Positions 24,367 to 50,321 of a stretch of DNA of 64,000 nucleotides are shown piece by piece. Below the pieces are notes generated by a model. It was not told the DNA's origin. It saw nothing but the letters and a program-made list of their open reading frames with translations, and ran no database searches. The stretch's first letter is position 1. Each line of letters starts with the position of its first letter. Position numbers and translations under genes: made by a program. The stretch lies in the NCBI GenBank assembly GCA_000004985.1, contig GG738865.1. One strand, written 5' to 3'. Source of the DNA: Naegleria gruberi. Taxonomy: Eukaryota.

Positions 24367-27300
24367 ATGACGAAAGAAGACGAAAAGAAAGAGAAGGAAA
24401 GAATCAAGGAAGAAGAAAGAAAACGAAGGGAAGAAGAGAAAAGACGTAAAGAAGAAGAGAAGGAAGAAGAAAGAAAACGAAAGGAAGAAGAACGTCGTTT
24501 AAAAAAGGAAGAAAAGAAACAAAAAGAAGACCAAAAGAAAAAGGAAAAGGAACTTAAAAAACTCAACAAGAAACTAAATGCTTCATCAAATTCAAGTTTT
24601 GATGGTGCCCCTTCAACACCAACTTCTGAATTAAATGTTTCAATTGGTGATGTAAATGGTGATCCTTTGGGAGGTCTTTCCGAAACTGAACTAAATGAAA
24701 ATATTGAAAAGATGTTAAATTCTATTGGAGCTAAGGAAGATGTGAGAGAAGCAGTTCGTGCCAATCAACCTGCAATGAAATATATTTTATGGAAAACATG
24801 GTATGAACAGTCCAATGATGATAACATTATTCCTTCCATTGAAAAATTGATTGACAGAATGAATACAAGAAAGGATCGTGAGACAATGCAAGATGTTTTG
24901 GTTAAATTACGTAATTCTACAGTTGCCTGGGTTGATTCTTTTATTGATTGTGGTGGTGTGAAGAGTGTAAATGAAATTCTCTCCTCTACAAATTTATTGA
25001 AAAAGACAAAGAATAAGGACGATGATACTCTACAATGGTTATGTTTGAACTGTTTACGTGCTGTTTTAAATACTGAAAAGGGTTTAGCTGCAATTGCACA
25101 TGACAAGACAATCTTTTTCAATATGGCTCTATTGTTGGATTCTGAAAATATTGAAATTAGAATTCAATGTTTATTTATTTTTGCTAATTTTTGCTCTGAG
25201 GACAGTGTTGGAGATGGTTACAAAATTATTCTCTCATCATTGGAGCATTTCAAATTTATTAGACGTGAAAAGCAAATGTTTGAATTTTTAGTGACAAGTT
25301 TAGAAAATCAATTAGATGTCACCTATATGACACACGTTATTTTCTTATTCAATTCACTGTTAACAAATGCTGATCCAACTGATACTATTACACTCGCCAA
25401 TCAATTGAACAGTTTGAAGGTAGTTGAAGTAATCAGAGAACAAATTCAAGGGAAACAAATTGACGATGAAGGTTTCCAAGTTCAATTCCAAATGTTCGTC
25501 GAAGAAATGGAACAAGCTCTCAAAAAGAATGTTGTCCAAATTGATACTAACGATCCACACCAAATTACCGATCATTTGAGAATGAAAATTCAAGGTACTC
25601 AATCTATGGATAGTTTTATGAGAATTTTGAGACATTTGCTCGTATTTACCGATGTTTATGCAGCAAAGTTTACTCTTGAAGAAACTATTGAATTGTGGAA
25701 ACAAGTGGAATTGTCCGTTGAAAGATTAATTCGTGAAAGACAATTTCTTGTTGATAATATTCCTCAAACACCAACATGTGAAACTCCATCCTCTGCTACT
25801 CAACCTCTCCTTCTCAGTCCATTATTGAAGAAGATGAGACATGGTAAATCATTCAAGGACAATACAACTACTGATGGTGAGTCCATAGATGAAACATCGG
25901 TAGAAGCTACATCTGTAGCTGAAGAAGCTCTCCATAAAAGATTACTCGCTCAAGATGAAACCATTCAACAATTACAAGCCGAATTAAAGGAAAAGAAGGA
26001 AGAATTGGAATTACTTAAACAAGCTGGAGAAAGTGTTACTGGTCAAGTTGAAAAGGAAAAGCATGAAAAGGAGATTGAAAGACTTCAAGATAAAATCAAT
26101 ACTATTGAATCAGAGAACCAAACCTATCAAAAGATGATTTCCGTTCTTGAGGATACCAAGGAAAAGCTTAAAGAAAAGGTCAAATCACTTAAATCTAAAC
26201 CTAACGAATCCCCAATTGGAAATAGTCAAGAATTTTTCAAACTGAAAGACAAAGCTCAACAATTAGAACTAACCATCACTAAACTCACTACTGATAATGA
26301 AAATTTGAAGAAGCAACTTGAAGAAAGTAAGAAGAAAATAGAGGAAAGTAAGAAGGAAATTGCAGAAAAAAAGAAAGAAATTGAAGAAAGAAAGAAAGCT
26401 GCTGAATCTGTATCCACTACTGTTGTGACTGCTGTTCCACCACCTCCAGGTTCTACAGGATTCGTCCCACCACCTCCAGGTGATATGACTGGTGTTCCTC
26501 CTCCACCTGGCTCAACAGGATTTGTTCCTCCTCCACCTGGTGGTGTCTCAGATTCTGTACCTCTCCCTCCTGGATCAACTGGGTTTGTTCCACCACCTCC
26601 AGGTGGTTTAACTGGAGGTGTTCCTCCTCCACCAGGCATGACTGGTGTTCCTCCTCCTCCTGGAAGTGGTATACCTCTTCCTCCAGGTGTTGGTGTTCCT
26701 CCTCCTCCTGGAATGACTGGTGTTCCTCCTCCACCAGGTGGTGGTGTTCCTCTTCCTCCAGGTAGTACACCTCCTCCGCCAGGTAGCTTCTTACCTCCTC
26801 CACCAGGATTTATGAAACCTCCAAATGCCATGCCAGCTCTTCCTAAACTTCCAGATTTCAAATCAAATGCCAAACTTCGTGCCTTCCACTTTGGTAATAT
26901 TCAAAATAAGAGTGTTCCAGAAACTATCTTTGCCAAATTCAAAATTATTGATCAAACTCATACAATTTTACGTGATTTGGACACTGCAGAATTTGAGGAA
27001 ACTTTTGGAATTAAGGCAAGTGCAACTCCTGGTACAGGTACAACTGCTGAACCAAAGAAGGAAAAGATTACTCTCATTGATGGAAAGAGATCTCACAATA
27101 TCAGTTTACAATTAGGTTCATTGCGTGGTATTCCTTATCCAAAATTAAAACAAGCCATTCTCGAGTTGGACGAATCTGTAGTGACACCTAATAATATTTC
27201 AACTATCAAGCAAATTGTTCCAACAGAAGAAGAATCACAACTTTGTGTAGATTATGAAGGTGATCGTGATGAACTTCAAGTTGCTGATTTGTTCTTTATT

Positions 27301-28406: not shown

Positions 28407-29524
28407 TTACATGACATTACACTTTTTAGGTTGCTTTTGGACTCTCTTTTTACATTCGTCAATGAATGCTACATCGTATTCCACACAACCTTGCAACAGA
28501 GCTACATTGTCAACTCCGCCAAGTCTCTGTTTTCTAATAAGTTCTTCGAAAATAAGAGTGACATTCTCTCCAAGTTTAGCACTGCTCATCACTATTGAAT
28601 AGTTCAACAATGAATATTCTGAAATAATTGAATTGAATTCAGATTTATACTTCTCAACAGTTTCTGCTCTATTTTCTTTCAATAAATCCATCTTGTTCAT
28701 TACAAACACAATTGGCATGTCATTAACTACATAATCTTTACAACGAATCAACAGGTCAACTTGATAACGAACATCTCTCAAAGAACTTTCATCATTCACT
28801 GCACAAACAATTACAAAACTTTGACCAACTCTCAGGTATTGATCTCTCATTGCAGAGAACTCCTCTGGACCAGCTATTTTCAAAACATTATTCAAATATT
28901 CTATTAAAAACTCAAAAACATACCAGTATCTAGAATATCCAATAATACAGGCTCTCCATCAACCTCAACATGTTTTCTATAAGAATCCTCAATTGTTGGA
29001 TCGTACTCTGATATAAAGACATTTTGAACGTAGTGAATTGTCAATGCAGATTTTCCTAAAATAGCTTAGTTTTAAATTCAAATAATGAAATACTAACCCA
29101 CTCCTCCTTGCCCAAGCACAACCACTTTAACTTCTTCTGATCCCTTACTCGGATCATATTTTGGTCTTTTCCACACTTTAAACTTGATGAAACTTGCCAA
29201 TAGAATTTTCCTCTTCATATCCCCTTTTTTAATCATTTGTGATTTGAGTTGTTCCAACTCCTTTTCAAATGCAGGCATTACAAAATTCTTTTCCAATACT
29301 GTCCACCAAAATGTATTGAAATAGTTCTGCATTTCATTCATACTCGAAATTCTCTTGCTGATTGATTGAAAAATTGCTGCCATTCTAATGTCAGATTTTC
29401 TACTCGCAGGATTATTCAATTCTTTATCAACTCCGAATGATAAAATATGTTGGAAAATTTCATAGGGAAGTGATGAGAATAGCGTTTGATGGTGGTGAGG
29501 CATTTTTTTTCTTTCTTTTTGCAT
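28407..29524 (-). CDS. Ras-subfamily small GTPase with a ~140-aa N-terminal extension bearing an F-box-like motif, 3 exons, CAAX tail
   Basis: Real ATG at 29524. Exon A 29524..29098 carries [18 protein letters not shown] (F-box-like, weak) and ends …[17 protein letters not shown] intron 29097..29056 (42 nt). Exon B 29055..28924 continues the P-loop exactly as GQGGVG|[50 protein letters not shown] intron 28923..28874 (50 nt). Exon C 28873..28407 reads [23 protein letters not shown]…NKMDL…SAK…KKCNVM. The protein is roughly 60% identical to H-Ras across the G domain by eye. The position equivalent to Ras Gln61 is Pro (DTAGPEEF). Confidence 0.85.
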
Positions 29525-30844: not shown

Positions 30845-31873
30845 TTAAACTTGTTCGTAATTTCCCTTCTTCTTTCCAAATTCTTGAGGTTCATCTTCTT
30901 CATCAAAGAATTGATTTTCATCAAAAGTATCCTCAATTTCACCAGTGAAACCAGATTCACGAACCATTGGAGCATTGTTGTTGTATCCAAGATCTTGTGA
31001 AGGTGTGACATAAACTGTGTTTGGAACAGTTTGAGCAGCAAATGAAGGTTGAATAGGTTGTTGAATTGGTTGAGTTGGTTGTTGAATAACAGCTTGTTGA
31101 CCTGATTGATTATTTTGTTGAGCTGCTTGATTAGCCTTTTCAGCTTGCTTATTGAATCTGAAAGTCAAAGCCTTCCAAATAGCAAAGTGAGCCAATAAAA
31201 AGACAGTCCAACCTCCTAAAACAATCAAAAACCATGGGAAATCGTGAACAGTGTAACAGTAAGTGACAAAAACAATAAAGTTAATAACACTGTAGAACAA
31301 GGCGTGGATATAAAAGTGATTGAAGAATTGTCTAACCTTGACAACCATACCATGAAGACAGTAGGCAAGTAATAAAACAGCAACTGGATAAACACTCCAA
31401 GGGAAGCTTGATGGTGTATGTTCATTCATGGCAATGAGTTGGAAACTTGTTGATGCGAAGAAGAGGGTGTGGAAGGAGAAGAGTCTATCGGAATAAGTAG
31501 GTGATCCTTGAATCATCAAACCACCAATAACTAACGATGAAACCCACAAAATATGTATAAACCAAGGATATCCAGTTGGTGTTGTTAAAATCCATATGCA
31601 AAAACAAATAATAGAAAGGAAAGCCATTATAAGTGAAAGTCTAACAAAAAGCTTTGGATGTTTGTGTCCTTGTAAAACATCATACTTTTGAATAACACTA
31701 TCTTCGAGTGCTGTTATTCTCTTTGAAGCTCTATCCACAATTAATCTCTTCTTATCTTCTTTAACTTCAGGAACTCCATTCAGTGAGGCCATTATTGGTG
31801 GCTGCTGTTGTGGAGGTACTTGTTGGGCCATCATTGGTGGAGGATTTGAAAAAGTTTGTTCTGATTGCATCAT
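30845..31873 (-). CDS. hypothetical multi-pass membrane protein (about 5 TM segments, Q/P-rich termini)
   Basis: Real ATG at 31873. Hydrophobic segments: LSLIMAFLSIICFCIWILT, WFIHILWVSSLVIGGLMI, VYPVAVLLLAYCLHGMV, FYSVINFIVFVTYCY and WFLIVLGGWTVFLLAHFAIW. No family assignment. Confidence 0.4.
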   Translation of the reverse strand: MMQSEQTFSNPPPMMAQQVPPQQQPPIMASLNGVPEVKEDKKRLIVDRASKRITALEDSVIQKYDVLQGHKHPKLFVRLSLIMAFLSIICFCIWILTTPTGYPWFIHILWVSSLVIGGLMIQGSPTYSDRLFSFHTLFFASTSFQLIAMNEHTPSSFPWSVYPVAVLLLAYCLHGMVVKVRQFFNHFYIHALFYSVINFIVFVTYCYTVHDFPWFLIVLGGWTVFLLAHFAIWKALTFRFNKQAEKANQAAQQNNQSGQQAVIQQPTQPIQQPIQPSFAAQTVPNTVYVTPSQDLGYNNNAPMVRESGFTGEIEDTFDENQFFDEEDEPQEFGKKKGNYEQV

Positions 31874-34638
31874 TTTGAATTGATTATTTTCTCTCCGTTA
31901 TTATAATTTAAATTGTATTGAACAATTTTTGATGAAGGAGATTCTCTAATATTGATCGCCAACGAGTGTCGTCGTTTGTTGTTTGTACTCGTAGTGGGAG
32001 TTTAAAAATATTTTTTCTAATTGAAAAATTATAAAAGATAAAAATCGTGCGAGCATTTTGAGTCTATCCACAAGTTTGAAAGTAATTGGAGTTGATTTGC
32101 TGCAAGAAAAGGAACAAGAGTAAAGTCGGAAGAGAGAGGAATAGTACTGAACCATTTATTTGAATTTGAATGGAAATTTCTGATTCATAGTGTAGTTGAG
32201 AAGGTAATAGGATGAGGAAATTGGAAGCAATTTTCTATTGTTTTCCTTTTGGTTGTTGTTAGAATTGCCGAATTGAAATAATCAAGCATTAACAATCAAG
32301 ATGAAGTATTGAATTATTTTTTCATCAGCAATGAGATTCTGATTGGAGGAATGATGATATTGACATGCCAAACAGATCACTTTGTAACCTGTGATTGAAT
32401 GCATTACAATAGTTATTTATCATTTAAAAAGTATTAACCCTGGCTGAGGACAATTAACAATGTATTATCAAGTATAATACGTGAATGAAGGTTTGTTACC
32501 CTCACAACACAGCGAGCTACAAAAATATCATAATATTAAATACTAAAGAAGTTCTTGCCAAAACCACTCAATTGGTAGTTCACTTAATTGAAATTATAAT
32601 AAACATCTATCTCTTCCTTTCCAAGAGAGCTATGAAAAACCATCAACATCAAGAAATTGTCCATTACCTCTTTGGTAACTGAGTAAATATTGTAAACTGA
32701 CACTAAGGATTTATTCTCTTGATAGAGTACTCTCTCCATCCAGTTTAAACAGTCATTCGTTACAAATATAGTCCTTAATTCCTAGAAATAAAAGTGGCAA
32801 GTATTGCTGTAACTTTGAGAGCTCAACTGGAAATACATCAACAAAGGTTCTTCATGGTTTTAATTTTACAACATCCAAACAGACCCATTTAATCATGGTT
32901 ATCCCCAACAATGTACACATATCAACACAATCCAAAAACTTGTCATTCATGTCAGTAACTGTTTCCTTATCTCATTGTGCCGACCACCCATCATATGAAG
33001 TTTTTTTCTGTCTAAAAATACAACAAGTAGAACGTTGTGACAATTTTAACAAAAGAGCGTCCATCTAAGCAAAATAACATCTTAGAAAAAAAGCCACGAC
33101 ATCATCTACGGGAACACAATCGTTGGTTAGTTACGAAAGCAACAACAACAGGACATTTAAATGGCTCAGAGCATGTAGGTCTCAATAGCAGAATTGAAAG
33201 ACCAACGGTTAATCAAATCAATTGTGGAGAACATTTGAGTAATAGAGGTTCGTGCGAAGAAGGAAATTCTATTTAGATAGGAGGTATTTCTTCTCTTATT
33301 AAATCCCATTTGGGTTATCTATTACAATCATAGTATAATGCTAAAAAGTAACATGGGTTGTGTTCTGGCAAGCAATGGCTGCATGAGGTTTGTCCTCTAT
33401 GGTTTGAACCTTAAACCACACTTGAACAACCAAATAATATTACGTCAAAAAAACAAGATCATCAACACGTTACATTCTCAAGGTGCACAATCATCATCTT
33501 GATTGCCGTCAGATATCATTCCAAAGTGCATGCAGAAGAGGCATCAATTCAACAACTTTCCAACACGTTTTATCTTTGTAATACAAAAACGGAATATCAC
33601 TGATCTAAAACATCAACCTCTGGTTTAATCTGGGAAAGTCAACTTTGGAAACCTCATGCAAAACCGAGTTTTCTAATGCCAAAAGTTAACAAGAGAGCTC
33701 TACAGGAGAGACATGCAAAATGACTCAACAATTCTGTAGTTTTCTACATTTGACTTTACCTGTAGGTGGTGTGCCTTAGCTTTCATCGGATTCTTAAGGT
33801 CATGTAACCAACGCACAAACTTATACAATCAGTCCCAAGAGCCCATCACACAAGCTAGCTTGATTCACCAAATAACTGGAGGAAGCGACAAACAAATTGT
33901 GAAAAAAATCCAAAACCATTCAAGCACCATTGAAACTATTTTTCGTATCATTTGTATTCGTACAAAGACGAAACATAATTTCGAGAAGTGATTGAATATT
34001 TGGATTTAAAGAGGATTAGGATTTGGATTAGAGACAAGGAAAAAGGGGGAAACCACAAAGAATGAATTGCACTGGTTAATGAATACATTGCTAGTAGCTT
34101 GACCTTCTTTGTGGTCTTCCTCTTTTTTTCTTGTCTCATCGGATGGTAGTAACTGGAGGATATCATGTGTGTACATGTAGTGTTAAAATTTTCTAATTTT
34201 TATTCTATTTCACTAACTCAACTATTTACCTGAAATGGTTTGAAACTTTAATCCAAGCTTTTGACAGAGTATTAACAATATTTAATATGAGTATTGAACG
34301 GTTGTAAAAAATATTGAAATGGAAAAATATCACCAAACAAATATGCGTTGTCCATTTTTAAAAGTAATGATGTTTGACGTTTAAAGTGAAATTTTTTTAC
34401 AGCAGAAGACATTTCACACTCAATAGGCAAGCTGCAGAAGTAGACCAGCTACAACATTTTTACAATATGCTTCTTACTACAGATGAGCTGAAGGAATAAT
34501 ATTCAGACCAGCTACAGCAATTAACCTGCTGATGGGCGATCGTTGATTCGACATTTCTTCACCACACATTTTGCCGGAGAGACATCACGAATCTTCTGTT
34601 AGACAGGTGTAAAAACTGTCAAAAAAAATTAATCAATA

Positions 34639-37340
34639 ATGCCACCACTGGATTTCTTGAGAAGACATCTTCAAAAAGGAGGAAGTAATAGTTCTTCTCC
34701 CGAACCATCAGACCAATCATCACCACAACGAATTTCTTCTATTCGAATTAAACATAAATCCACAATCAATGTACAATTAAAAATTGAAATTGAAACCATT
34801 TCACAACACATAACAATTAATGAACAAAACGTTACTTGCTTTCCTGGTGATTTGATAGAAAGTTTTATCAAGGAGAAGTTGTTAAATTTTCTACCAAATA
34901 ATTCAAACTCTACAACAGATTCCTATCGATCATTTTGTGAAAAGTATGCATTGTTTGTTGTGAGAGAGTTTGGTGATAAAGGTGTTGGAGGTGATTGGAT
35001 TTTTAATTATGGAATGTCATTTGCAGATTTAAATGTGAAAGGAGTTGTAAGTGATCATTGAAAACTTTTTATTAAATTTGAAAACATTAGTGTACAATAG
35101 AATGTGTACTTCAAAAGAAGAAGATACAAGTTCAATTCGGAGTTGACCAACAATTTGCAAAACCAACAGAAATTAATGAATTAAAAACAGTGGAGGAAAT
35201 TTCATCTGAAATTGCAAAATCATTCATGATAAAGAAGGAGTTTATGGCTGATTTTTCTTTGAAGGATAATTTGCAACAATGGTTAATTCCACAATTAACA
35301 CTCCGAGAACAAGGACAACAAGTGAATGACAAATCAAAACTTCAATTATCTAAAAAATATAATTTCACATATGACCAACTATTGGAAAATGATATTAAAC
35401 TAAATGCAGTTAGTTTATCATTAACATATAGTGAAACAAAGGAGAGATTCATGAATGGAAAACTCAATTACAATATTCAAGATAGAACTGAAAGAAATAT
35501 CATTGCTAGATTGGTTGCATTGTCTATTTTAGCAGAGGGACTTGACAGAAAGTACTACAAGAGAGTGGATGATGTTTCTAAATTCGAATCACTCGTACCT
35601 CCTCACTTTTATGCTGAAATTCAAGAAACTCAAAAGATGAAAACCAAAATGAGAAAAAAGTTCATCAAGAATTTACAAAGAAACAAGACCCTTAACATTG
35701 TCGATGCTCAATGTGAATATGTGAAATTGTGTTCACAACACCCATTCTTTAAACTCAACTTGTACAAGGTTGAATTTAAGCAAGAATCAAGTGCAGAGAG
35801 TACCAATCTTAGTGATTTTACTGAAATTCTATTTGGTATTGATGATCAAGGTTTATGTACTATACACTCTACGGACAGATGCATTACTTCGAGTACTCCA
35901 TTTACAAGTATTGTGACTTATTCTGCTACCAAAGACATTTTGAGAATTGTCATCAAACAACCAGAACCAATTCTAGAATCTACAATGGTTATCAAATCAC
36001 CTTTAGCTGAGGAAATTGAACTAGTCATTGCTGGTGCTATTGATTATTCAAATAGAAATATTTTCATGACTCCTCAAGTGAAGGATTTACTGGAGGATGT
36101 TCAAGGATCTGATCGAGTTAAAAAGACATCCTTTGCATTGCCAAGAGACGTACCAACAGATGACATTCAACTCTTACTTTCAGATAGAAATATTGTGGAG
36201 AAGGCACTTCAAGGATTGACAGAATATAATAGACAAGTCAAAACCAAATCAGGTCCTATTCAGGCACTTCTTGTTGAGAAACAAGAAGAAACCTCTGCAC
36301 AAAGAAAGAAAGTTATTGGACAGTATATGGAAGAATTGAGCAAAAAGGATCCAAATGATACTCTCAACAATGAAAACATTAATGTATTCAAAAAACCATT
36401 CGAATATTTGGAAATGTATGACCCTATCAAAAATACTTGTGAACTGATAGAAGAGTCCTACCTCAGATTGATTGAGGTTGAAATGGAGAGGAAAGCTAGA
36501 GAGACTGAAGTTAGCATATTGGAAAATATTTCCAAGGGTCTCATGACAGGAATGTCTGTTAATTCTATTGATTTGGAATCAACCAACTTAGATCAACAAA
36601 AGAATAACTTGTATCCAAAACAAGTTCTCGATATGAAGAGAGAATATGATATGGCATTTAAACAAATTCAAGTCGAGTCTGTTAATATGGAATCATTGAA
36701 GCAAATCAAACAAATGTTTGATCAGCAAGCTCAATATTTGTTACAATATGAAAAGTATTTGCACGACAAGTTTTTGAGACTTAAGGAAATGCCCACAACT
36801 GGAAGTGTTGAATCAACAGCTCCAAGTACCTTCACTTCTCTCAAGAAATTCCCTACTCCACCTGTACCATCATCCAATAACAACTCCTCAAGTGCAAACA
36901 CACCAACCATATCTACCACACCAAAACCAAGTGGTGAAACTCTTTCTCCAACAGCAAATCTTCCAAGAAAGATTTCTTCTAGCACTACACCTCCTGAACC
37001 ATCAACATTAAGAACAGCATCACCAACGAGTCGTAAAACTGTTTTTACTCCAACAAGTGCCAAGTCAACCACAACCGATTCCTCACCTCCAAACAATACT
37101 CAACCAACAAATTCTAATTCATCATCACCAATTGATTCATCTGCTCCATCAACAAATTCCACAACAGCTTCTGATCCATCAGGTAACAATTCATTTAGTG
37201 ATTTGAGATCCAGATTCCTCAAACCTGCAACACCCAACACTCCTCCACCCTCCAATGCACTAGCAGAAGAACGAAAGCAAGCCTTAAAGGGAAGAACATC
37301 AACAGTTCTTGAAGCCCTCTCCAGATTCGAGAGGAAATAA
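34639..37340 (+). CDS. FERM-like domain protein with a ubiquitin-like N-terminus and a long S/T/P-rich C-terminal tail, 2 exons
   Basis: Real ATG at 34639. Exon 1 ends at 35046 (…NVKGVV). A GTAAGT intron 35047..35117 (an in-frame TAG at 35088 forces the acceptor at caaaag|AAGAAG). Exon 2 35118..37340. The FERM F2-like motif is DAQCEYVKLCSQHPFFKLNLYKVEF (compare band-4.1 …YLKIAQDLEMYGVNYF). The last ~190 aa are S/T/P/N low complexity. Confidence 0.5.
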
Positions 37341-37595
37341 ATCATCATGATGATAATTAAGCTTAATTATCCTTATCTCAACTTTTCATAAGCCTTCCAT
37401 CTGGTTTACAAGTGTTAGCAGCACTGTATCATCTTCACCCCATACGATCCATCATCTTTATCATCCTTCCATTTAAATTGATTGGGTTTTCCTCTCTTTG
37501 CAAATAAACAAACAATAATGTTATCGGCTTGTTGATAGCCAATTCCGAGACAAGGATGTATTTTTTTATTTTTAAAATAAAAACATCAAACAACG

Positions 37596-40500
37596 ATGAA
37601 GCAACTCTCAACACCTGCATCAAAGGCATTCCGATCCTTGCTTGCAACCTCGAGAACATCATCATCAGGGCTTTTCCGAAAGACTGATGTTGTGTTTGGG
37701 AAGGGAGCCAATAGTTATCAACAAGAACAGTTGAATTCATCAAGGATGATTATCGGAAGTTTGCAAGGTGATTTGAAGAGTAGATTCTTCTCTACATCAA
37801 CAATTCATAGAAACGAGAAGAAGGATGATGAAGATAATAATGATAATGATGAAAAGAAAAAGAAGGAAGAAGAAGAAGAACAGAAGGATGTTTCTGAAAA
37901 GGACAAAACACAAGAAATTAACAAAATGTTCGATGACTTTGAATCATCCAGAAAGAGTGATGAAATTAATGATATTGTAGAGGATAGTGCTGAAAGAATT
38001 GAAGAATTATTATCAGATAAGGTAAATGCTGAAGATGTTTCGGATAAAGCAAGTAAATTGCTTTCTCCTGTTAAGCAAACTGAACAATCAATTACAAGCT
38101 TCTTTGCCACTCCAACTCCACCTTTTGTTGAAATTGTCCCATTGTACAAAAAACCAGCATTCCCTGGAACTATTGTTCCTATTTTCATTACTGATACTAA
38201 ATTCATTCAATCCATGTTGGAGAGTGGTTATCATGATAAATTGGTTGGTCTTTTCCTTGTAAAGGATTTGGAAAAACGTGATCAAATGAAGAATGTTGCA
38301 TCTCTCAATGAAATTGAAACAGTAGGTACTCTTGCAAAGGTTACTAGGGTTGTACCATCTAAAGGTGGTGCTTCAGTAGTATTTGCTGCAATCAGAAGAA
38401 TTAAGGTAACTGGAACTGTAAATAATAGTAAGAGACTTACTGCAAATATTGAAGAAGTGACTGCAAATAAGGTTGACAAGAATGATCTATCAATCAAGGC
38501 TCACGTAATGGAAATTTTCCAACAAATTAAGGAATTTTTATCACACATTGATCCTGTTCAAAGAGAACAATTGAATATGGTATTGGAACAATTGGATCAT
38601 ACTGATCCTGCTGAGTTGTCTGACATTGCTGCCATTCTTTGCTCTCATGATCCTGAAACACTTCAAGAAATTTTACAAACTACAGACATTAGACTCAGAT
38701 TAGTCAAATCTCTTGAGCTCTTAAAGTCTGAAGTTGAAACTAAAAAGATTCAAGAAAAGATTCAAAGAAATCTTGAGGAAAAACTCAATAATCAACAAAG
38801 AAAGATGTACCTCACTGAACAACTTAAAATTATCAAGAAGGAACTTGGTCTTGAAAAGGATGCCAAGGAAGAATTAATGAAAAAATTCTCAGGTGCTGCT
38901 GAACAAATCAAGTCTAGAGATAATGTTCCTGAGCTTGTCAAGACTACATTGCAAGATGAATTGAACAAATTCTCCACTTTGGATCCTCATTCAAGTGAAT
39001 ATACCAATGTAAGAAATTATTTGGATTGGATGACATCTCTTCCTTGGGGATTACGTGGTATTGAAAACTTTGATTTGATCAAAGCTTCCAACATTCTCGA
39101 TCATGATCACTATGGACTCAAGAAGGTAAAGGAGAGAATTTTGGAATTTATTGCAGTTGGTAAATTGAAGAATACCACAAAGGGTAAAATTATTCTATTG
39201 ATGGGCCCTCCTGGTGTTGGTAAGACCTCTATTGGTAAATCTATTGCCTCCTCTTTGGGAAGAGAATTCCACAGATTCAGTGTTGGTGGTTTGACTGATG
39301 TCAGTGAAATTAAGGGACACAGAAGAACTTACATTGGATCTATTCCTGGTAAATTAATTAATATCATGAAACATTGCAAGACTAATAATCCTGTAATTAT
39401 GATTGATGAAATTGATAAATTGGGAAGAAGTCATCAAGGTGATCCAGCCAGTGCTCTCCTTGAAGTATTGGATCCAGAACAAAATAATGCCTTTGTTGAC
39501 CACTATTTGGATGTACCATATGATTTGAGTGATGTCTTGTTTGTTTGTACAGCTAACGTTCTCGACAGTATTCCTGGACCACTTCTTGACAGAATGGAAG
39601 TTTTGAGACTCAGTGGCTATATTCTTGAAGAAAAGGTTCATATCACCAGAAACTACCTCCTTCCAAAAAAGATTGAAGAGACTGGACTTTATGTTCAAAA
39701 GGCTAAGGAGAAGAAACCTTTGCTTACTGTTACAAATGGTCTCATTGAAAAACTAATTAGAGAACATTGTAGAGAAGCTGGTGTAAGAAACTTGGAAAAG
39801 CACATTGAACTGATCTGTCGTAAGGTTGCCTATAAAATTGCCAAATCTAATAAGAAACCAGCTCCAATCCATCTCACTGAAAATGATTTGGAAGAATTGG
39901 TAGGAAAGCCAGTATTCACATCAGATAGATACTACCTCACCACTCCTGTAGGTGTTACTATGGGTCTTGCTTGGACATCAATGGGAGGTTCCACATTGTA
40001 TATTGAAACTATTTCAGAAAAACTAGGTCAAGCCGATATCCCAGTTGCAACTACTGACAATGCCACTACAACTGCATCTGTTCCTATGAATGGCTCACTC
40101 AAGTGTACAGGTTCTATGGGAGATGTAATGAAGGAATCATCATCAATTGCTTACTCCTATGCTAAGAATCATCTGTTCAATGTTGATCCAAAGAATGACT
40201 TTTTCAGAAAGACAAATATTCACATGCACATTCCAGAAGGTGGTGTAAATAAGGATGGACCTTCTGCAGGTGTTACAATGGTGACTTCACTTCTTTCTCT
40301 TGCTCTCAATAAGCCTGTAAGACATAACTTGGCAATGACAGGAGAATTAACCATAACTGGTAAGGTTCTTGCTATTGGTGGTGTTAAGGAAAAGGTTATT
40401 GCTGCCAGAAGATCTGGAATTACAACTGTAATTCTGCCTGCTGGAAACAGAAGAGATTGGGATGAATTGGATGAAAATATCAAGAAGGGATTAGAAGTTC

Positions 40501-40619
40501 ACTTTGCTGATTATTATTCAGATGTTTTCAGAATTTCTTTTGGATATGATGAAGCTGAAAATTTGGAAGCTATTGAAAAGGATCGTCAATCACCAAATCT
40601 TATGGATCTTTCTTCTTAA
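37596..40619 (+). CDS. LON: Lon protease homolog, mitochondrial (AAA+ ATP-dependent serine protease)
   Basis: Real ATG at 37596 with an Arg/Ser-rich presequence-like N-terminus. The Lon N domain is present. Walker A is GPPGVGKTS, Walker B is VIMIDEIDK, and the sensor and Arg-finger region is intact. The protease domain has the catalytic Ser in DGPSAGVTM and the Lys in TGKVLAIGGVKEKV. 1007 aa, single exon. Confidence 0.95.
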   Translation: MKQLSTPASKAFRSLLATSRTSSSGLFRKTDVVFGKGANSYQQEQLNSSRMIIGSLQGDLKSRFFSTSTIHRNEKKDDEDNNDNDEKKKKEEEEEQKDVSEKDKTQEINKMFDDFESSRKSDEINDIVEDSAERIEELLSDKVNAEDVSDKASKLLSPVKQTEQSITSFFATPTPPFVEIVPLYKKPAFPGTIVPIFITDTKFIQSMLESGYHDKLVGLFLVKDLEKRDQMKNVASLNEIETVGTLAKVTRVVPSKGGASVVFAAIRRIKVTGTVNNSKRLTANIEEVTANKVDKNDLSIKAHVMEIFQQIKEFLSHIDPVQREQLNMVLEQLDHTDPAELSDIAAILCSHDPETLQEILQTTDIRLRLVKSLELLKSEVETKKIQEKIQRNLEEKLNNQQRKMYLTEQLKIIKKELGLEKDAKEELMKKFSGAAEQIKSRDNVPELVKTTLQDELNKFSTLDPHSSEYTNVRNYLDWMTSLPWGLRGIENFDLIKASNILDHDHYGLKKVKERILEFIAVGKLKNTTKGKIILLMGPPGVGKTSIGKSIASSLGREFHRFSVGGLTDVSEIKGHRRTYIGSIPGKLINIMKHCKTNNPVIMIDEIDKLGRSHQGDPASALLEVLDPEQNNAFVDHYLDVPYDLSDVLFVCTANVLDSIPGPLLDRMEVLRLSGYILEEKVHITRNYLLPKKIEETGLYVQKAKEKKPLLTVTNGLIEKLIREHCREAGVRNLEKHIELICRKVAYKIAKSNKKPAPIHLTENDLEELVGKPVFTSDRYYLTTPVGVTMGLAWTSMGGSTLYIETISEKLGQADIPVATTDNATTTASVPMNGSLKCTGSMGDVMKESSSIAYSYAKNHLFNVDPKNDFFRKTNIHMHIPEGGVNKDGPSAGVTMVTSLLSLALNKPVRHNLAMTGELTITGKVLAIGGVKEKVIAARRSGITTVILPAGNRRDWDELDENIKKGLEVHFADYYSDVFRISFGYDEAENLEAIEKDRQSPNLMDLSS

Positions 40620-40641
40620 GTGTTTTATTGTAAATAATAAA

Positions 40642-42363
40642 TTATTTTTCTTTCGAGAACCTCAGCTTTAAAGTCAATCTACCTTCAGGTCCAAACAGTT
40701 CATAAACCCAATAGTAGAAGAAACCCATCATCTTCATTTTGAATGGTCTATTTACCCAATCCTCATAAGTTATTTCTTTGGAAACTTCAAGCTCACGTTT
40801 AAAGTCTTTCTCAAGCTCAGATGCCAATTTCAAATCATAGTGTTGAATTCCAATCTCTAAATTAGTTTCTAAACTCATTCTATCCAAATTGTAAGAACCC
40901 ATCGATGTGAAAAATCCATCTATTGTCATGTATTTAGCATGAAGGGTCTTTCCAAAATATTCGTATACTTTGATACCTTGCTTTAAATATTCTCCATAAA
41001 TATATGTACTGATATATCTCATGCCAGGAACGTCACTTCTTCCACAAGTTAACAGTCTCACATCACATCCATTCTTCTTTGCAGCAATAAGAGCTTGCTT
41101 TAACCTTTCAGGTGGGTAGAAATATGGTGTTGAAATGTAGCAGTGACTTCTCGAATTATTAATTACATTACAAATATTCTTGTAGAGAGCTGTTTTGTGT
41201 TTTTTAGGATCTGAAAATAATACTTGTGAATAACGTCTTTCTTCATTATTTGTTGGTACTGCTTCTTCTTCAATATTGTCTGTCATATTCCAAGAGTTAT
41301 TTGGATCTTTATCAATGTCAGTCAATAAATCCTCTCTGTTAAATTCCCTAACTATATTCTCTCCTAGTTTTGATTTGGATTGTTCCAAACTGAAAAGTAG
41401 GGATAATGTCAAATAGGATACACTTGGTCCATCAACCATGCAATGCAAATCACGCATGTGACCTATTCCTGATAGCAGTACATTATAATCAGTAGTATTA
41501 GATCTTCCCTTTTCAATATATTCATCCAACTCATCAAGTAAATTTTCATCCAAAGGAACATCCAATACGCCTTGGTCACCTTCATCAGTGAAAATCTCCT
41601 TTTCCAATTGTTCTTCTGTATACAGTGCTCTATCAAATGGATTTGAATATCTATTTTCAATATTCATTCCTCCAATCAAGCCAATTTTATCATCAACAAC
41701 GCAAACTTTCTTGTGATTTCTCAATGTTGGAGCTCTACTAGGATGTCTAAAAAAGAAATTATATAATTTCAAATCCTTATCATTAAATTTCAATATTTTC
41801 CCACCAGCTTCTTTCAATTCTTGAATTAAATCCTCCTTTTCAAAATCAATATGATAACTTCCGAAAGCATCCACTGAAAGAATAACTTCCACTCCTCTAT
41901 GAGCAGCTTGAATTAATTTCACCAAAGTTTTATCTCCAATTTGATCTGTTGAAATTGTATAACAATCAATAAATACTCTCTTCTTTGCTTTATCAATACC
42001 ATTCCATAAGGCTTTGAAATAATCAGCACCATTGAAATAAATTTCCTTTACTCTATTATTCTCGGAAAATCCTCCCAACGATATTGATTGTGCAATGGAC
42101 ATGTACCACGGAAGGGTTAAATCTCTACCAACCTTTTTAGATAATTCTTGTAAATGTGGATAGAATGATGAAATTACTTCATTTGTTGCATTTGCCACTC
42201 CACCATGTTTCCAAATCCAACTCTTTGATTTAAATGTAAATCGATGATAAATTCTCGAATAAAACAATGATGTATAATAGGAGGAAGGAACCGGTGATTT
42301 GGCTATAATAGAAGCAGCAGCAGTAGTAGTAGATGATGCCGCCGATGATACCAATCGATTCAT
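40642..42363 (-). CDS. phospholipase D-superfamily protein with two HKD motifs, probable bacterial-type (PLD-type) cardiolipin synthase, mitochondrial
   Basis: Real ATG at 42363. The N-terminus is Ser/Ala/Thr-rich, like a mitochondrial presequence (MNRLVSSAASSTTTAAASIIAKS). HKD-1 is NHKKVCVVDD and HKD-2 is LHAKYMTIDG (HxKxxxxD twice), with a GSYNLD-type motif following. 573 aa. Confidence 0.75.
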   Translation of the reverse strand: MNRLVSSAASSTTTAAASIIAKSPVPSSYYTSLFYSRIYHRFTFKSKSWIWKHGGVANATNEVISSFYPHLQELSKKVGRDLTLPWYMSIAQSISLGGFSENNRVKEIYFNGADYFKALWNGIDKAKKRVFIDCYTISTDQIGDKTLVKLIQAAHRGVEVILSVDAFGSYHIDFEKEDLIQELKEAGGKILKFNDKDLKLYNFFFRHPSRAPTLRNHKKVCVVDDKIGLIGGMNIENRYSNPFDRALYTEEQLEKEIFTDEGDQGVLDVPLDENLLDELDEYIEKGRSNTTDYNVLLSGIGHMRDLHCMVDGPSVSYLTLSLLFSLEQSKSKLGENIVREFNREDLLTDIDKDPNNSWNMTDNIEEEAVPTNNEERRYSQVLFSDPKKHKTALYKNICNVINNSRSHCYISTPYFYPPERLKQALIAAKKNGCDVRLLTCGRSDVPGMRYISTYIYGEYLKQGIKVYEYFGKTLHAKYMTIDGFFTSMGSYNLDRMSLETNLEIGIQHYDLKLASELEKDFKRELEVSKEITYEDWVNRPFKMKMMGFFYYWVYELFGPEGRLTLKLRFSKEK

Positions 42364-42684: not shown

Positions 42685-43017
42685 TTACAACTTTTTTTCC
42701 ATGTATTCCTCTCTTGCAATATTGGTTTGAGTTGGTTGATTTAACATTCCACCACTTGTAGTAGTTGATTGAGGAACATTTACTCCTGTTGTTGTTGCTG
42801 GCTTGTGTGGAATTCCAACATCTTTAACTCCAAATTGACTTGCCAAGTTTGGATCAGTTTCTGCCAACTTCTTTTGTTGTCTGCTTTCGTAAGTGATATT
42901 GCTGTCAGTGTCATGAGTGAATGGATGTAAGACTTTTTCCTTAATATTGTGGATGGTTCCACTGCCGGTTGTGCTTGTTTTTTGAGGTTGCATTTTGATA
43001 TTTGTTTTTTTTTGCAT
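42685..43017 (-). CDS. small hydrophilic hypothetical protein (110 aa, T/G/Q-rich)
   Basis: Real ATG at 43017. No hydrophobic segments. The composition resembles small stress/LEA-like hydrophilins. Only the ORF itself supports this call. Confidence 0.3.
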   Translation of the reverse strand: MQKKTNIKMQPQKTSTTGSGTIHNIKEKVLHPFTHDTDSNITYESRQQKKLAETDPNLASQFGVKDVGIPHKPATTTGVNVPQSTTTSGGMLNQPTQTNIAREEYMEKKL

Positions 43018-43723
43018 GAAATTGTGAATATGATGTTCAGTATTTATGAGATTTTCAAGAATTACTTTATTTGGATAATTTACAAAGAAAGAAAGTTGTT
43101 TTTAGAAAATCTCAACTTGGGCAGTTATGTAAATGTCAATTATCTGAAATCAGTAATTTATTCTCAATCTAATAGGTGAAGATTTTGTCTTTTTGGCGAA
43201 TTGGAATGATTGAATTAGCAAAATTGGCATCTAGACTTTTTAAAACAAATGCACATTTCTAGATTCCTTTACAATTCAATCCATGTGTACAATCACATTA
43301 TGTTACAATAATTTACAGTTTTATTGAGTTCAGAACAACAAGCATGGCATCAGTCTGTTCTCAATCTTAAAAGGTCAGCTTTAGAACCAAAGAGTTAAGG
43401 AAAATAAGGAGGATACTTGCTTTCCTTAGATACCCACCAGACAGTGGAAGAAATACTCAGCTTAACCTTGTTTACAACAAATTGTTAATCGCCTCGTGCG
43501 TACTATTTTTACAATCAAATTATTTCAAAAAAAATAGCAAAGCAATGAAAGCAACCCTGCCAGAGGAAAAAAAGGTCCCTTCGAAAGGTTCATGTTTCAA
43601 AGCAAGTATTGTGATACCTATAAGGTTTGTTTAATTTATTGATCGATTCCGAAATAAATTGATGATTAAAGCGTGCTCGTGTTGAGTTGGATTGTTTGGG
43701 TGAATTATTCCGATCAATCAGCA

Positions 43724-44629
43724 ATGACAACTACAAATTATTACAAGACAAGTAATACCTCTAGAAGTGGATCTACCAAACAATCACTTTGTGTTGGAGC
43801 TACTTCAGGAATTGGAAAAGGAATTGCCTTGAAATTGGCCTCTCAAAATATGGATGTTTCAATCATGGGACGAAATGCACAAGCTGGAAAGGAAATTATT
43901 GAGGAAATGAAGAGAATTTTCCCACAGGGCAAATTTGAAATGATTCCAGTTGATGCATCTTCAATGAAGGACATTAAGAGAGTTTGTGAGGAATATAAGA
44001 AGAATCACAATCGATTGGATTATCTAGTTCTCTCGCAGGGAATTTCCAGCATGGCTGGAAGAACAGAGACAAAAGAAGGAATTGATGTCAAACTAGCTCT
44101 CCATTATTATGGAAGAGTCATGTTTGTTAGAGAATTACAAGATTTATTGAGATCAACTCTAACTATTTCTTCAGATGTGAGAGTGTTAACTGTTTTATCG
44201 GCTGGAATTCATGGAACCTATACCAATTTGAATGATCTGGATTTGAAAGAAGATTTCTCATTGAAGAATGCTGCTGATGCTGCTGGTTTTTACAATGACT
44301 TGGCCATGGATCAATTGTCCAGAGAGGAAGGAAATGAAAATATTTCATTCATTCATCAAGCTCCAGGATTTATAGCCACTCAATGGGGTCGTGAATTGCC
44401 AACAGCTGTCAGATGGATTATTCGTGCAGTTCAGAAATTTGCAAGATCTACAGAACAATGTGCAGAATATTTGTTTAAGGGTTTGACAGATGAGTTAACC
44501 AAGAAGGGCTTCCATGTTTTAAATCAATATGGTGAACCAACCTCAGTTACCAAGGATCATAATGAAATGTACAGACAATATATTTGGAAACACACTTTGG
44601 AATTATTGCATAAGGCACTTGGAAAATAA
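43724..44629 (+). CDS. short-chain dehydrogenase/reductase (SDR) family oxidoreductase
   Basis: The track start at 43673 is GTG; the first ATG is at 43724 (MTTTNYYK…). The cofactor motif is VGATSGIGKGIALKLA (TGxxxGIG). It has the SDR length and a YxxxK-region pattern. Confidence 0.8.
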   Translation: MTTTNYYKTSNTSRSGSTKQSLCVGATSGIGKGIALKLASQNMDVSIMGRNAQAGKEIIEEMKRIFPQGKFEMIPVDASSMKDIKRVCEEYKKNHNRLDYLVLSQGISSMAGRTETKEGIDVKLALHYYGRVMFVRELQDLLRSTLTISSDVRVLTVLSAGIHGTYTNLNDLDLKEDFSLKNAADAAGFYNDLAMDQLSREEGNENISFIHQAPGFIATQWGRELPTAVRWIIRAVQKFARSTEQCAEYLFKGLTDELTKKGFHVLNQYGEPTSVTKDHNEMYRQYIWKHTLELLHKALGK

Positions 44630-49848: not shown

Positions 49849-50303
49849 TTTTTTAAATTTGTTTTTTAGGGGATTTTGTTTTTCTTACGCGCCACAAAGA
49901 TTATTCTTCTGTATGTCGCTTTCTTCTTGGGTTAAAGCTTTTTGAAATCAATATTGAATTTCAATAATCTTTAAATAATATTATTGAGGAATGAGTTTCA
50001 GTAAAGGTGTTGGTGTTGTATTGGAATCAATTCAACCGTTTTTTTTTCCACTGTTGATGTGAAGAAAATATTCGGATGATTGGAAACAATTGATCGACAC
50101 ACAAAGAGGAATCAAGCCAACTAAATGCACACAGTGGAAATTATTTTGGAATGATTTGATAAATAGTTATTGGAAAGAGGCTACAATCTTCTTTTGGCTT
50201 TTCTGTTGAGAGAGAAGATTTCTGAGAGTTGAGCGTGTTATTTTATTCGGGCGTGTTTCATTTCATTGGTTGTATGGGCAATTACAAAAATTTTCAACAT
50301 TAA

Positions 50304-50321
50304 TGATTGGTCAGCCAATCA
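50304..50321. promoter_or_regulatory. perfect 18-bp palindrome TGATTGGTCAGCCAATCA containing inverted CCAAT boxes, in a bidirectional intergenic region
   Basis: Read directly at 50304..50321 (tgattgg tcag ccaatca). It lies ~460 bp from the Sin3 ATG (minus strand, 49848) and ~690 bp upstream of the ArfGAP-C2 ATG (plus strand, 51013). CCAAT/ATTGG is the NF-Y type core. Functionality is inferred only. Confidence 0.3.

What the first reader, a model, noticed from the sequence alone, without database searches (positions are those of the whole stretch)
31874..34638. 2.7 kb ORF-free, compositionally atypical segment in an otherwise tightly packed region
Across the window, intergenic spacers are mostly 50 to 600 bp and strongly A/T-biased. 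This 2.7 kb block lies between two divergently transcribed genes, with starts at 31873 on the minus strand and 34639 on the plus strand. It has stop codons in all six frames and no ORF above ~80 codons. It is visibly more balanced in base composition and more sequence-complex than the other spacers, with abundant C and mixed tetranucleotides and few long A/T runs. It contains a 13-nt direct repeat AGACCAGCTACA(A/G)CAAT at ~34442 and ~34506 and an ATTGG motif at ~32345. Candidate explanations are a long non-coding RNA locus, a decayed mobile-element or pseudogene remnant, or an unusually large regulatory region.
Basis: seen in the sequence. Interest (0 to 1): 0.55.

Follow-up and report, generated by a model that had tools for sequence, protein, structure and literature searches.

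The report
Conserved microRNA-like hairpin in Naegleria spacer
The 2.7 kb gene-free stretch of this Naegleria gruberi sequence is truly non-coding. It hides one strongly conserved element, a 107-base RNA hairpin matching a small RNA (nfo-mir-9) already sequenced in the brain-eating amoeba N. fowleri, which suggests a microRNA-type gene kept throughout the genus.

Summary
The window is Naegleria gruberi. The left flank protein is 100% identical to NAEGRDRAFT_79578.

**The segment is non-coding.** 31874-34638 is the largest ORF-free gap in the 64 kb. It has no coding potential, no Pfam domain in any frame and no protein homologue.

**Its composition is only mildly unusual.** GC is 0.339, against 0.303 in other gaps and 0.340 in coding sequence. 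The difference comes from a central core, 32451-34137. The two ends look like ordinary spacers.

- It lies on the + strand at 34031-34137, with a 32-bp stem, -55.3 kcal/mol and z = -9.5. No other 110-nt window in the 64 kb folds as stably.
- Its 3' arm, UGGUCUUCCUCUUUUUUUCUUG, is identical in N. lovaniensis, N. fowleri and an uncultured relative.
- The 5' arm varies only in ways that keep pairing. The loop varies freely, from 10 to about 75 nt.
- The arm matches nfo-mir-9, a 23-nt small RNA predicted from N. fowleri small-RNA sequencing.
- In all four species the hairpin lies 0.7-2.3 kb from the same 2TM gene, despite heavy rearrangement.

**Verdict.** This is a non-coding spacer carrying the N. 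gruberi orthologue of a genus-conserved microRNA-type gene. The other ~2 kb may be its primary transcript or regulatory DNA, but that is not shown. The pseudogene and transposon readings have no support.

The parts
31874..34638 (.). ORF-free intergenic segment between the divergent 2TM and FERM genes
   Evidence: It is the largest ORF-free gap in the window. It has no coding potential, no protein homologue and no Pfam domain.
30845..31873 (-). Left flank gene: 2TM-domain membrane protein (NAEGRDRAFT_79578). Its orthologue is the hairpin's neighbour in every species examined.
   Evidence: Pfam 2TM domain. 100% identity to the N. gruberi protein. Orthologues lie next to the hairpin in L005, L006/L012 and L007/L013.
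31874..32450 (.). Ordinary A/T-rich spacer next to the 2TM gene start, presumed to be its promoter and 5' UTR (inference)
   Evidence: GC 0.308, A/T-only runs 0.17, and G exceeds C on the + strand with GC skew +0.31.
32451..34030 (+). Central non-coding core with coding-like GC. It is a candidate upstream part of the hairpin's primary transcript, or regulatory DNA. The strand assignment is inferred, not shown.
   Evidence: GC 0.33-0.37 with few A/T-only runs. C exceeds G and A exceeds T on the + strand. A similar C>G block lies upstream of the hairpin in N. lovaniensis and N. fowleri. No homology to anything was found.
34031..34137 (+). MicroRNA-type hairpin precursor, orthologous to N. fowleri nfo-mir-9: 32-bp stem, one bulged C, 3 G-U pairs, 42-nt loop
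   Evidence: -55.3 kcal/mol with z -9.48 on the + strand, against -39.3 on the - strand. It is more stable than all 6,400 scanned 110-nt windows. Hairpins are conserved in four species.
34112..34134 (+). Predicted mature 3p small RNA, UGGUCUUCCUCUUUUUUUCUUG(U). The first 22 nt are invariant across four species.
   Evidence: Exact 22-mer in the window, L003, L005, L006/L012 and L007/L013. It matches the 23-nt nfo-mir-9 in Table S1 of PMC11761746. The 3p arm varies at 1 of 26 sites and the 5p partner at 9 of 26.
34036..34057 (+). Predicted star (5p) strand, placed by assuming 2-nt 3' overhangs (inference only)
   Evidence: Derived from the pairing table. No read data are available.
34138..34638 (+). 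Ordinary A/T-rich spacer upstream of the FERM gene. It contains the direct repeat at 34442-34459 and 34505-34522.
   Evidence: GC 0.325 and A/T-only runs 0.19. Repeat confirmed and not conserved in orthologous promoters.
34639..37340 (+). Right flank gene: FERM-domain protein. Exon 1 is 34639-35061, followed by a short intron and a second exon ending at 37340.
   Evidence: Weak Pfam FERM_M and IRS hits. Orthologues in N. lovaniensis, N. fowleri and Willaertia. The start aligns with orthologues.

Best explanation
The segment is non-coding intergenic DNA of Naegleria gruberi. Its one demonstrably selected element is a microRNA-type gene.

**Proposed mechanism.**
- A + strand transcript folds into the 107-nt hairpin at 34031-34137.
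- An RNase III enzyme (a Dicer-like protein) would cut out a ~22-23-nt duplex.
- The 3' arm product, UGGUCUUCCUCUUUUUUUCUUG(U) at 34112-34134, would be loaded into the single Argonaute. It would guide silencing of purine-rich (GAA/AAG-rich) target RNAs.

**What is shown here.**
- The hairpin exists and is exceptionally stable on the + strand.
- It is conserved in four species, with an invariant 3' arm, a pairing-preserving variable 5' arm and a free loop.
- It keeps conserved linkage to the 2TM gene.
- It corresponds to the N. fowleri locus whose 3' arm was reported as a sequenced 23-nt small RNA (nfo-mir-9).

**What is inferred.**
- Expression and processing in N. gruberi.
- Dicer and Argonaute dependence.
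- The identity of the targets.
- That the central ~1.6 kb core (32451-34030) is the upstream part of the primary transcript or its control region.

The two ~500-bp ends are ordinary promoter-type spacers of the flanking genes.
For: **Species identity.** The left flank protein is 100% identical to NAEGRDRAFT_79578.

**The segment is non-coding**.

**Hairpin stability.** -55.3 kcal/mol with z = -9.48 on the + strand, against -39.3 on the - strand. It is more stable than every 110-nt window of the 64 kb.

**Conservation.**
- The exact 22-mer is present, always as the 3' arm of a hairpin of 30 bp or more, in N. lovaniensis (L005 13030-13127), N. fowleri (L006 and L012 9426-9500) and an uncultured relative (L007/L013).
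- The surrounding non-coding DNA is otherwise unalignable between N. gruberi and the others.
- The 3' arm varies at 1 of 26 sites and its 5' partner at 9 of 26 (Fisher p = 0.011).
- Every 5' arm substitution keeps pairing: A/G opposite U, C/U opposite G, and G always opposite C.
- Loops range from 10 to about 75 nt and are not conserved.

**Experimental support from the literature.** Table S1 of PMC11761746 lists nfo-mir-9 as a 23-nt microRNA with a 70-nt precursor. It was called by miRDeep2 from N. fowleri whole-cell small-RNA sequencing. Its two machine-read spellings are consistent with UGGUCUUCCUCUUUUUUUCUUGC.

**Processing machinery.** N. fowleri encodes Dicer-like, RNase III and Argonaute candidates (PMC13315211).

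**Linkage.** The hairpin lies 0.7-2.3 kb from the 2TM orthologue in all four species, although all other neighbours differ. In N. fowleri and N. lovaniensis the interval between 2TM and the next gene is also long (3.0 and 2.6 kb) and has no conserved coding signal.
Against: - No expression data for N. gruberi were available to me.
- The published N. fowleri call is a miRDeep2 prediction. It was not confirmed by qPCR and was seen in extracellular vesicles in only one of two samples.
- Because the 3' arm is invariant, only one stem pair shows a two-sided compensatory change. Structural covariation in the strict sense is therefore weak.
- The arm is a low-complexity pyrimidine tract. The bare 22-mer also occurs by chance in four unrelated metagenome contigs that have no hairpin.
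- The basal stem below the predicted duplex is only about 5 bp.
- Nothing directly shows that the central ~1.6 kb is transcribed. Its C>G skew is not the skew of typical sense strands in this window, where the mean GC skew is +0.10.
- No counterpart was found within 10 kb of the Willaertia 2TM gene.
Confidence: 0.7

Rival explanations
1. The segment is an ordinary, merely enlarged intergenic or regulatory region at an evolutionary rearrangement breakpoint. On this reading the hairpin is conserved for a reason other than small-RNA production, for example as a cis-acting RNA or DNA element or a protein-binding stem. The rest is neutral filler.
For: - Synteny with N. fowleri and N. lovaniensis breaks exactly here. 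In those species and in Willaertia a carboxyltransferase gene lies 150-280 bp upstream of FERM. In N. gruberi the 2TM gene and the hairpin lie there instead.
- Outside the hairpin nothing is conserved between N. gruberi and the other species.
- The two ends have ordinary spacer composition.
Against: - An invariant 22-nt arm, a variable but pairing partner arm and a free loop form the pattern expected of a guide small RNA. A generic structural element would not show it.
- A 23-nt RNA from this arm was reported from N. fowleri small-RNA sequencing.
- The G-U pairs make this an RNA-level, + strand structure.
- The long ORF-free interval persists in N. fowleri and N. lovaniensis with nine collinear conserved islands.
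Confidence: 0.2
2. The segment is a decayed pseudogene or mobile-element remnant. This would explain its coding-like GC content combined with stop codons in all frames.
For: - The GC content of the core equals that of coding sequence.
- N. lovaniensis carries a DDE transposase-type gene 1 kb upstream of its 2TM orthologue, so mobile DNA has been near this locus.
Against: - The 53 ORF pieces of 30 aa or more (2375 aa) gave no hit at E <= 1 among 5.8 billion proteins.
- Six-frame translations gave no Pfam domain.
- tblastx against 10-kb flanks of N. lovaniensis, N. fowleri and Willaertia found nothing in the segment.
- No second copy and no terminal repeats occur in the window.
- Codon-usage score is low throughout.
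Confidence: 0.05
3. The segment holds an unannotated protein-coding gene built from many short exons that an ORF scan misses.
For: - Naegleria genes do contain introns. The FERM gene and the Ras-like gene in this window are split.
- Two 50-codon windows reach a codon score of about 8.
Against: - Those scores are below the coding mean (15.9) and similar to those in other spacers.
- No ORF piece has any homologue, not even in other Naegleria proteomes that are in the database.
- Conserved islands between N. lovaniensis and N. fowleri score equally in all six frames, which indicates DNA-level rather than coding conservation.
Confidence: 0.03

Closest known systems
nfo-mir-9 of Naegleria fowleri (Russell et al. 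2025, bioRxiv; PMC11761746, Supplementary Table S1)
   Same: - The 22 nt of the 3' arm are identical to the N. fowleri genomic hairpin (L012 9475-9496).
- The stated 23-nt length and both machine-read spellings fit that arm.
- Both are hairpin precursors.
- Both lie next to the 2TM-protein orthologue (FDP41_010669 in N. fowleri).
   Different: - The N. gruberi 5' arm differs at several purine positions, and position 23 is U rather than C.
- The loop is 42 nt rather than 10 nt.
- The 2TM gene is inverted relative to the hairpin, and the downstream gene is FERM rather than ENT.
- There are no expression data for N. gruberi.
- I found no mention of conservation of this RNA in the supplement of that paper.
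Plant- and animal-type microRNA precursors (e.g. Rfam MIR408, RF00690)
   Same: - A long, nearly perfect stem with few bulges.
- The conserved arm starts with U.
- One arm is conserved much more strongly than the other, and the loop is free to vary.
- The long stem and variable loop length resemble plant-type precursors processed by Dicer alone.
   Different: - There is no sequence relationship. The Rfam match to MIR408 is 27.9 bits against a gathering score of 64, which reflects hairpin shape only.
- No DGCR8/Pasha homologue is reported for N. fowleri (PMC13315211), so the animal two-step pathway is unlikely.
Hairpin-derived endogenous siRNA loci (hpRNA)
   Same: An inverted repeat is transcribed into a long double-stranded stem and cut by Dicer.
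   Different: Such loci usually have much longer stems, give many phased or heterogeneous small RNAs, and are poorly conserved. Here the stem is about 32 bp, which holds one duplex, and one 22-nt arm is invariant across species.
Intergenic microRNA host transcripts (pri-miRNA or long non-coding RNA hosts)
   Same: A kilobase-scale ORF-free unit carries a single hairpin near one end. The length of the ORF-free interval is roughly kept in three species (2.6-3.0 kb).
   Different: Transcription of the interval is not shown. Sequence outside the hairpin is not conserved between N. gruberi and the others.

Membership tests
microRNA gene (generic criteria: Ambros 2003; Axtell and Meyers 2018; MirGeneDB) | The precursor folds into a single hairpin, and the candidate small RNA lies in a stem with few mismatches (no more than 5 unpaired positions in the duplex) | tested here: met
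   The stem is 32 bp with one bulged C and 3 G-U pairs, and 25 of 26 arm positions are paired.
microRNA gene (generic criteria) | A discrete ~20-24-nt RNA from one arm is detected by sequencing | not testable with these tools
   This is reported only for the N. fowleri orthologue: a 23-nt miRDeep2 call from whole-cell small-RNA sequencing, not qPCR-confirmed (PMC11761746 Table S1). No N. gruberi reads were available.
microRNA gene (generic criteria) | A star strand is detected, with 2-nt 3' overhangs and homogeneous 5' ends | not testable with these tools
   This needs read-level small-RNA data. The star position 34036-34057 is my inference.
microRNA gene (generic criteria) | The mature sequence and the hairpin are phylogenetically conserved, with the arm conserved more than the loop | tested here: met
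   The 22-nt arm is identical in four species. The 5' arm varies at 9 of 26 sites with pairing kept. Loops of 10 to about 75 nt are unrelated.
microRNA gene (generic criteria) | Biogenesis depends on Dicer-type RNase III and the product is loaded into Argonaute | not testable with these tools
   Only the presence of candidate genes in N. fowleri is known (PMC13315211).
Orthologue of nfo-mir-9 | Same mature sequence at a syntenic position | tested here: met
   The N. fowleri reference hairpin L012 9426-9500 carries the identical 22-mer and lies 2.3 kb from FDP41_010669, the orthologue of the window's 2TM gene. The published sequence matches after allowing for letters lost in machine reading of the PDF. 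The paper's own scaffold coordinates could not be mapped.
Rfam MIR408 (RF00690) | Score at or above the family's gathering threshold (64 bits) | tested here: not met
   27.9 bits. There was no match at gathering level anywhere in the segment.
Pseudogene or transposable-element remnant | Detectable protein or domain homology in some frame, or multiple copies, or terminal repeats | tested here: not met
   No homology or domain was found. No copy or terminal repeat occurs in the window. Genome-wide copy number could not be tested.
Long non-coding RNA or pri-miRNA host transcript | A transcript longer than 200 nt without coding capacity spans the region | not testable with these tools
   Lack of coding capacity is shown. 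Transcription is not.

The most novel reading that the evidence does not exclude
This would be a bona fide microRNA gene conserved across the whole genus Naegleria and an even more distant uncultured relative. That would make it one of the first deeply conserved microRNAs documented in Discoba (the 'excavate' eukaryotes). It would be carried on a ~2-kb non-coding host unit that has stayed linked to the same 2TM membrane-protein gene through extensive genome rearrangement, including an inversion in N. gruberi. Such linkage would imply a functional coupling between the two.
Probability: 0.4. Interest if true: 0.7.

Novelty: new member of a known kind. Interest (0 to 1): 0.55.

Why it matters
Conserved microRNAs are well established in animals and plants. 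From my general knowledge, they are rare or disputed in most protist lineages.

- **Evolutionary support.** A hairpin with a 22-nt arm unchanged between N. gruberi, N. lovaniensis, N. fowleri and a more distant relative is strong evidence that at least one predicted Naegleria microRNA is under selection. It is unlikely to be a sequencing or prediction artefact.
- **A concrete test case.** It provides a locus for studying small-RNA biogenesis and function in Heterolobosea, in the non-pathogenic model N. gruberi.
- **Diagnostics.** Small RNAs are being developed as diagnostic markers for the pathogen N. fowleri (PMC11761746). A sequence shared across the genus is not species-specific, which bears on marker choice.
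- **Annotation.** This long ORF-free spacer in a compact protist genome turned out to hold an unannotated RNA gene, so similar spacers may be worth checking for others.

Tried and rejected
- **Pseudogene of the ancestral upstream neighbour.** tblastx of 10-kb flanks from N. lovaniensis, N. fowleri and Willaertia found no trace of the carboxyltransferase gene in the segment.
- **Transposon remnant.** The DDE transposase-type gene next to the N. lovaniensis 2TM gene has no match in the window.
- **Protein homology.** The concatenated ORF set gave no hit. Six-frame Pfam gave only a noise hit at E = 0.5.
- **Known RNA families.** Nothing reached gathering level. Only sub-threshold plant miRNA models hit the hairpin.
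- **Second inverted repeat, 33632-33760.** It is not more stable than shuffles, with z = -0.2.
- **Strand skew as evidence of transcription direction.** I abandoned this. Typical sense strands here have G > C, whereas the core has C > G on the hairpin strand.
- **More homologues from JGI metagenomes.** The exact 22-mer gave four contigs, none with a hairpin, so these are chance pyrimidine-tract matches.
- **Other published nfo-mir sequences.** None occurs in the window.
- **Direct look-up of the N. gruberi assembly.** It failed because the assembly is not indexed in the contig collection. Genome-wide copy number and the official gene models over the segment could not be checked.
- **Bacterial promoter and terminator scan.** It is irrelevant for a eukaryote.
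- **Literature search for N. gruberi long non-coding RNAs.** It returned nothing useful.
Full report
**Source and setting.**
- The window has 33% GC and encodes eukaryotic proteins: a formin, a mitochondrial Lon protease, a phospholipase D and a FERM protein.
- The left flank protein (30845-31873, - strand, Pfam 2TM domain) is 100% identical to NAEGRDRAFT_79578 of Naegleria gruberi.
- The right flank FERM protein is 44-48% identical to proteins of N. fowleri and N. lovaniensis. It is 99% identical to a protein on an ENA metagenome contig, L003. That contig is a close strain covering window 33609-41584 at 99.5% identity.

**Checking the observation.**
- The segment 31874-34638 is bounded by the two gene starts, and both align with the starts of orthologues.
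- It is the largest ORF-free gap in the window at 2735 bp. The next is 1412 bp and most are 100-860 bp.
- Its longest stop-to-stop ORF is 98 codons, which is what shuffled sequence gives.
- A codon-usage log-likelihood scan trained on the window's long ORFs stays far below coding values.
- The compositional claim holds only in a weak form. GC is 0.339, against 0.303 for the other gaps pooled (p = 0.02), and equals that of coding sequence.
- A/T-only runs are fewer than in other gaps (p = 0.012), but A/T homopolymer content is no different.
- The segment is a mosaic. About 500-580 bp at each end look like ordinary spacers. The core 32451-34137 has GC 0.33-0.39.
- The direct repeat at 34442 and 34505 is real and mildly non-random, appearing in 2.75% of shuffles. 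It is not conserved upstream of FERM orthologues.
- The ATTGG motif carries no information.

**What the segment is not.**
- All 53 ORF pieces of 30 aa or more, joined into one 2375-aa query, found nothing at E <= 1 among 5.8 billion proteins. That collection does contain the N. gruberi proteome.
- Six-frame translations have no Pfam domain.
- In N. lovaniensis, N. fowleri and Willaertia the gene just upstream of FERM is a carboxyltransferase. tblastx finds no remnant of it or of any other neighbour in the segment.
- No part of the segment is repeated elsewhere in the window.
- Rfam has nothing at gathering level.

**The hairpin.**
- A permissive Rfam search and the repeat finder both pointed to 34031-34137.
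- On the + strand the sequence folds into a 32-bp stem with one bulged C, three G-U pairs and a 42-nt loop. Its energy is -55.3 kcal/mol, with z = -9.48 against dinucleotide shuffles.
- The - strand reaches only -39.3 kcal/mol, because the G-U pairs become A-C mismatches.
- None of 6,400 windows of 110 nt across both strands of the 64 kb reaches this energy. The runner-up, at -44.7, is the GC-rich proline repeat of the formin gene.

**Conservation.**
- A sensitive blastn of the segment against the fetched loci hit N. lovaniensis with the 3' arm only.
- The 22-mer TGGTCTTCCTCTTTTTTTCTTG is present without any mismatch in four places besides the window:
  - the close strain L003;
  - N. lovaniensis (L005 13102);
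  - N. fowleri (L006, which is 99.94% identical to the reference assembly, L012 9475);
  - an uncultured relative (L007 and L013) whose 2TM protein is only 54-56% identical to those of the three named species.
- In each species it forms the 3' arm of a hairpin with a stem of 30 bp or more, and the hairpin is more stable on that strand.
- Apart from the hairpin, the non-coding DNA of N. gruberi cannot be aligned with the others.
- Across the 26 basal stem positions, the 3' arm varies at one site and its 5' partner at nine (Fisher p = 0.011).
- Every 5' arm substitution keeps pairing. A and G alternate opposite U at five sites, C and U alternate opposite G at one, and G is always kept opposite C at seven sites.
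- The distal stem has different sequences that still pair. Loops of 10, 30, 42 and about 75 nt are unrelated.
- This pattern of one invariant arm, a compensating partner arm and a free loop is what a guide small RNA predicts. A generic structural RNA would not be expected to show it.
- A scan of JGI metagenomes for the bare 22-mer gave four contigs without any hairpin. The pyrimidine tract alone can therefore occur by chance, and the hairpin plus synteny are the meaningful signal.
- No counterpart lies within 10 kb of the Willaertia 2TM gene.

**Link to published data.**
- Supplementary Table S1 of Russell et al. 2025 (PMC11761746) lists nfo-mir-9 as a 23-nt microRNA with a 70-nt precursor. 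It was predicted by miRDeep2 from N. fowleri whole-cell small-RNA sequencing.
- The machine-read text gives UGGUCUCCUCUUUUUUUCUUGC in one table and UGGUCUUCUCUUUUUUUCUUC in another.
- Other entries differ between the two tables in the same letter-dropping way. Both spellings and the stated length fit the genomic UGGUCUUCCUCUUUUUUUCUUGC of N. fowleri.
- The call was not confirmed by qPCR, and the RNA was seen in vesicles in one of two samples.
- The word 'conserved' does not occur in the supplement.
- No paper in the library contains the sequence as text.
- A 2026 review lists Dicer-like, RNase III and single Argonaute candidates in N. fowleri, and no DGCR8 (PMC13315211).

**Genomic context.**
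- In N. lovaniensis, N. fowleri and the uncultured relative, the hairpin is on the same strand as the 2TM gene. It lies 1.9, 2.3 and 0.7 kb downstream of it.
- In N. fowleri and N. lovaniensis the interval from 2TM to the next gene (ENT) is 3.0 and 2.6 kb. It has no conserved coding signal but contains nine collinear conserved islands, the hairpin among them.
- In N. gruberi the 2TM gene is inverted, so gene and hairpin are divergent and 2.2 kb apart. The downstream gene is FERM instead of ENT.
- All other neighbours differ between the species. The window shares several genes with the Willaertia locus in scrambled order.
- The 2TM-hairpin pair has thus stayed together through many rearrangements. 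The segment sits at a synteny breakpoint relative to N. fowleri and N. lovaniensis.

**Interpretation.**
- The best-supported reading is that the segment is non-coding and carries the N. gruberi orthologue of a genus-conserved microRNA-type gene.
- I give about 0.9 to the statement that the hairpin is a conserved, selected RNA element orthologous to the nfo-mir-9 locus.
- I give about 0.6 to it being a true Dicer- and Argonaute-dependent microRNA.
- I give about 0.3-0.4 to the central core being part of its primary transcript.
- Targets are unknown. The guide would pair with purine-rich GAA/AAG tracts. The only seed-plus-extended site in the window lies in the lysine/glutamate-rich coding region of the formin gene, which I regard as speculative.

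**Novelty and score.**
- The kind of element is known, and the N. fowleri member is in a preprint supplement.
- New here are the N. gruberi member, the evidence of deep conservation with microRNA-type asymmetry, and the conserved linkage to the 2TM gene.
- I rate it as a new member of a known kind, with moderate interest (0.55).

Noticed in passing
window 34639 rightwards vs L001/L002; L004: Synteny with N. lovaniensis and N. fowleri is kept from the FERM gene start rightwards (Lon, PLD and further genes to about 48300) and breaks exactly at the segment. In those species and in Willaertia a carboxyltransferase gene (ACCA/Carboxyl_trans) lies 150-280 bp upstream of FERM. It is absent from the whole 64-kb window.
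   Followed up: yes
L005 7740-8996: N. lovaniensis has a DDE_Tnp_1/DDE_Tnp_4 transposase-type gene 1 kb upstream of its 2TM gene. It is absent at the N. fowleri locus (L012) and has no match in the window.
   Followed up: partly
L005 13332-13411 and L012 9706-9785: An 81-nt block about 200 nt downstream of the hairpin is 85% identical between N. lovaniensis and N. fowleri, better than any other non-coding island there. It has no counterpart in N. gruberi. It may be the ENT promoter or another RNA element.
   Followed up: no
window 33729-33743; L012 7311: The exact 15-mer CAATTCTGTAGTTTT is shared between the N. gruberi segment and the N. fowleri ORF-free interval, with two mismatches in N. lovaniensis. 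My rough estimate of the chance expectation is about 0.05. Its position relative to the hairpin differs (0.3 kb vs 2.1 kb). Its significance is unclear.
   Followed up: partly
window 33772-33958: All differences between the window and the close strain L003 upstream of the FERM gene cluster here: six substitutions and three indels of 1, 4 and 7 nt. There are none in 33959-34638, which includes the hairpin. The metagenome contig also ends at 33609.
   Followed up: partly
window 54702-54753 (+): A second strand-asymmetric hairpin, 19 bp with G-U pairs. It gives -20.8 kcal/mol and z -4.2 on the + strand, against -8.8 on the - strand. It lies inside another ORF-free gap (54066-54928). No related locus was available to test conservation.
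   Followed up: partly
window 54308-54475 (+): Within the same ORF-free gap, a 50-codon window reaches a coding-level codon-usage score (19.0). This may be an unannotated short exon or small gene.
   Followed up: no
window 49834-51245: This is the second-largest ORF-free gap at 1412 bp, with GC 0.319. One window has moderate coding potential (50428-50577, score 12.6). It was not examined further.
   Followed up: no
window 24508-24533 (+): A seed match (GAAGACC) with extended pairing to the predicted small RNA (-18.3 kcal/mol) lies in the lysine/glutamate-rich N-terminal coding region of the formin gene. It is low-complexity sequence, so this may be chance.
   Followed up: partly
window 42685-44629: Two ORFs (138 and 319 codons) lie between the PLD gene and the next syntenic gene. 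They have no tblastx match above 60 bits in the corresponding interval of N. lovaniensis or N. fowleri, which suggests another local insertion or rearrangement.
   Followed up: no
window 28407-29524 (-): A Ras-family GTPase appears split into two ORFs (29093-29524 and 28407-28895), presumably by an intron. The FERM gene likewise has a short intron near 35062-35189.
   Followed up: no
PMC11761746 supplement: The machine-read supplementary tables drop letters from RNA sequences. The same microRNAs are spelt differently in two tables, so text searches for these sequences fail. The nfo-mir-9 match was found only by reading the table.
   Followed up: yes
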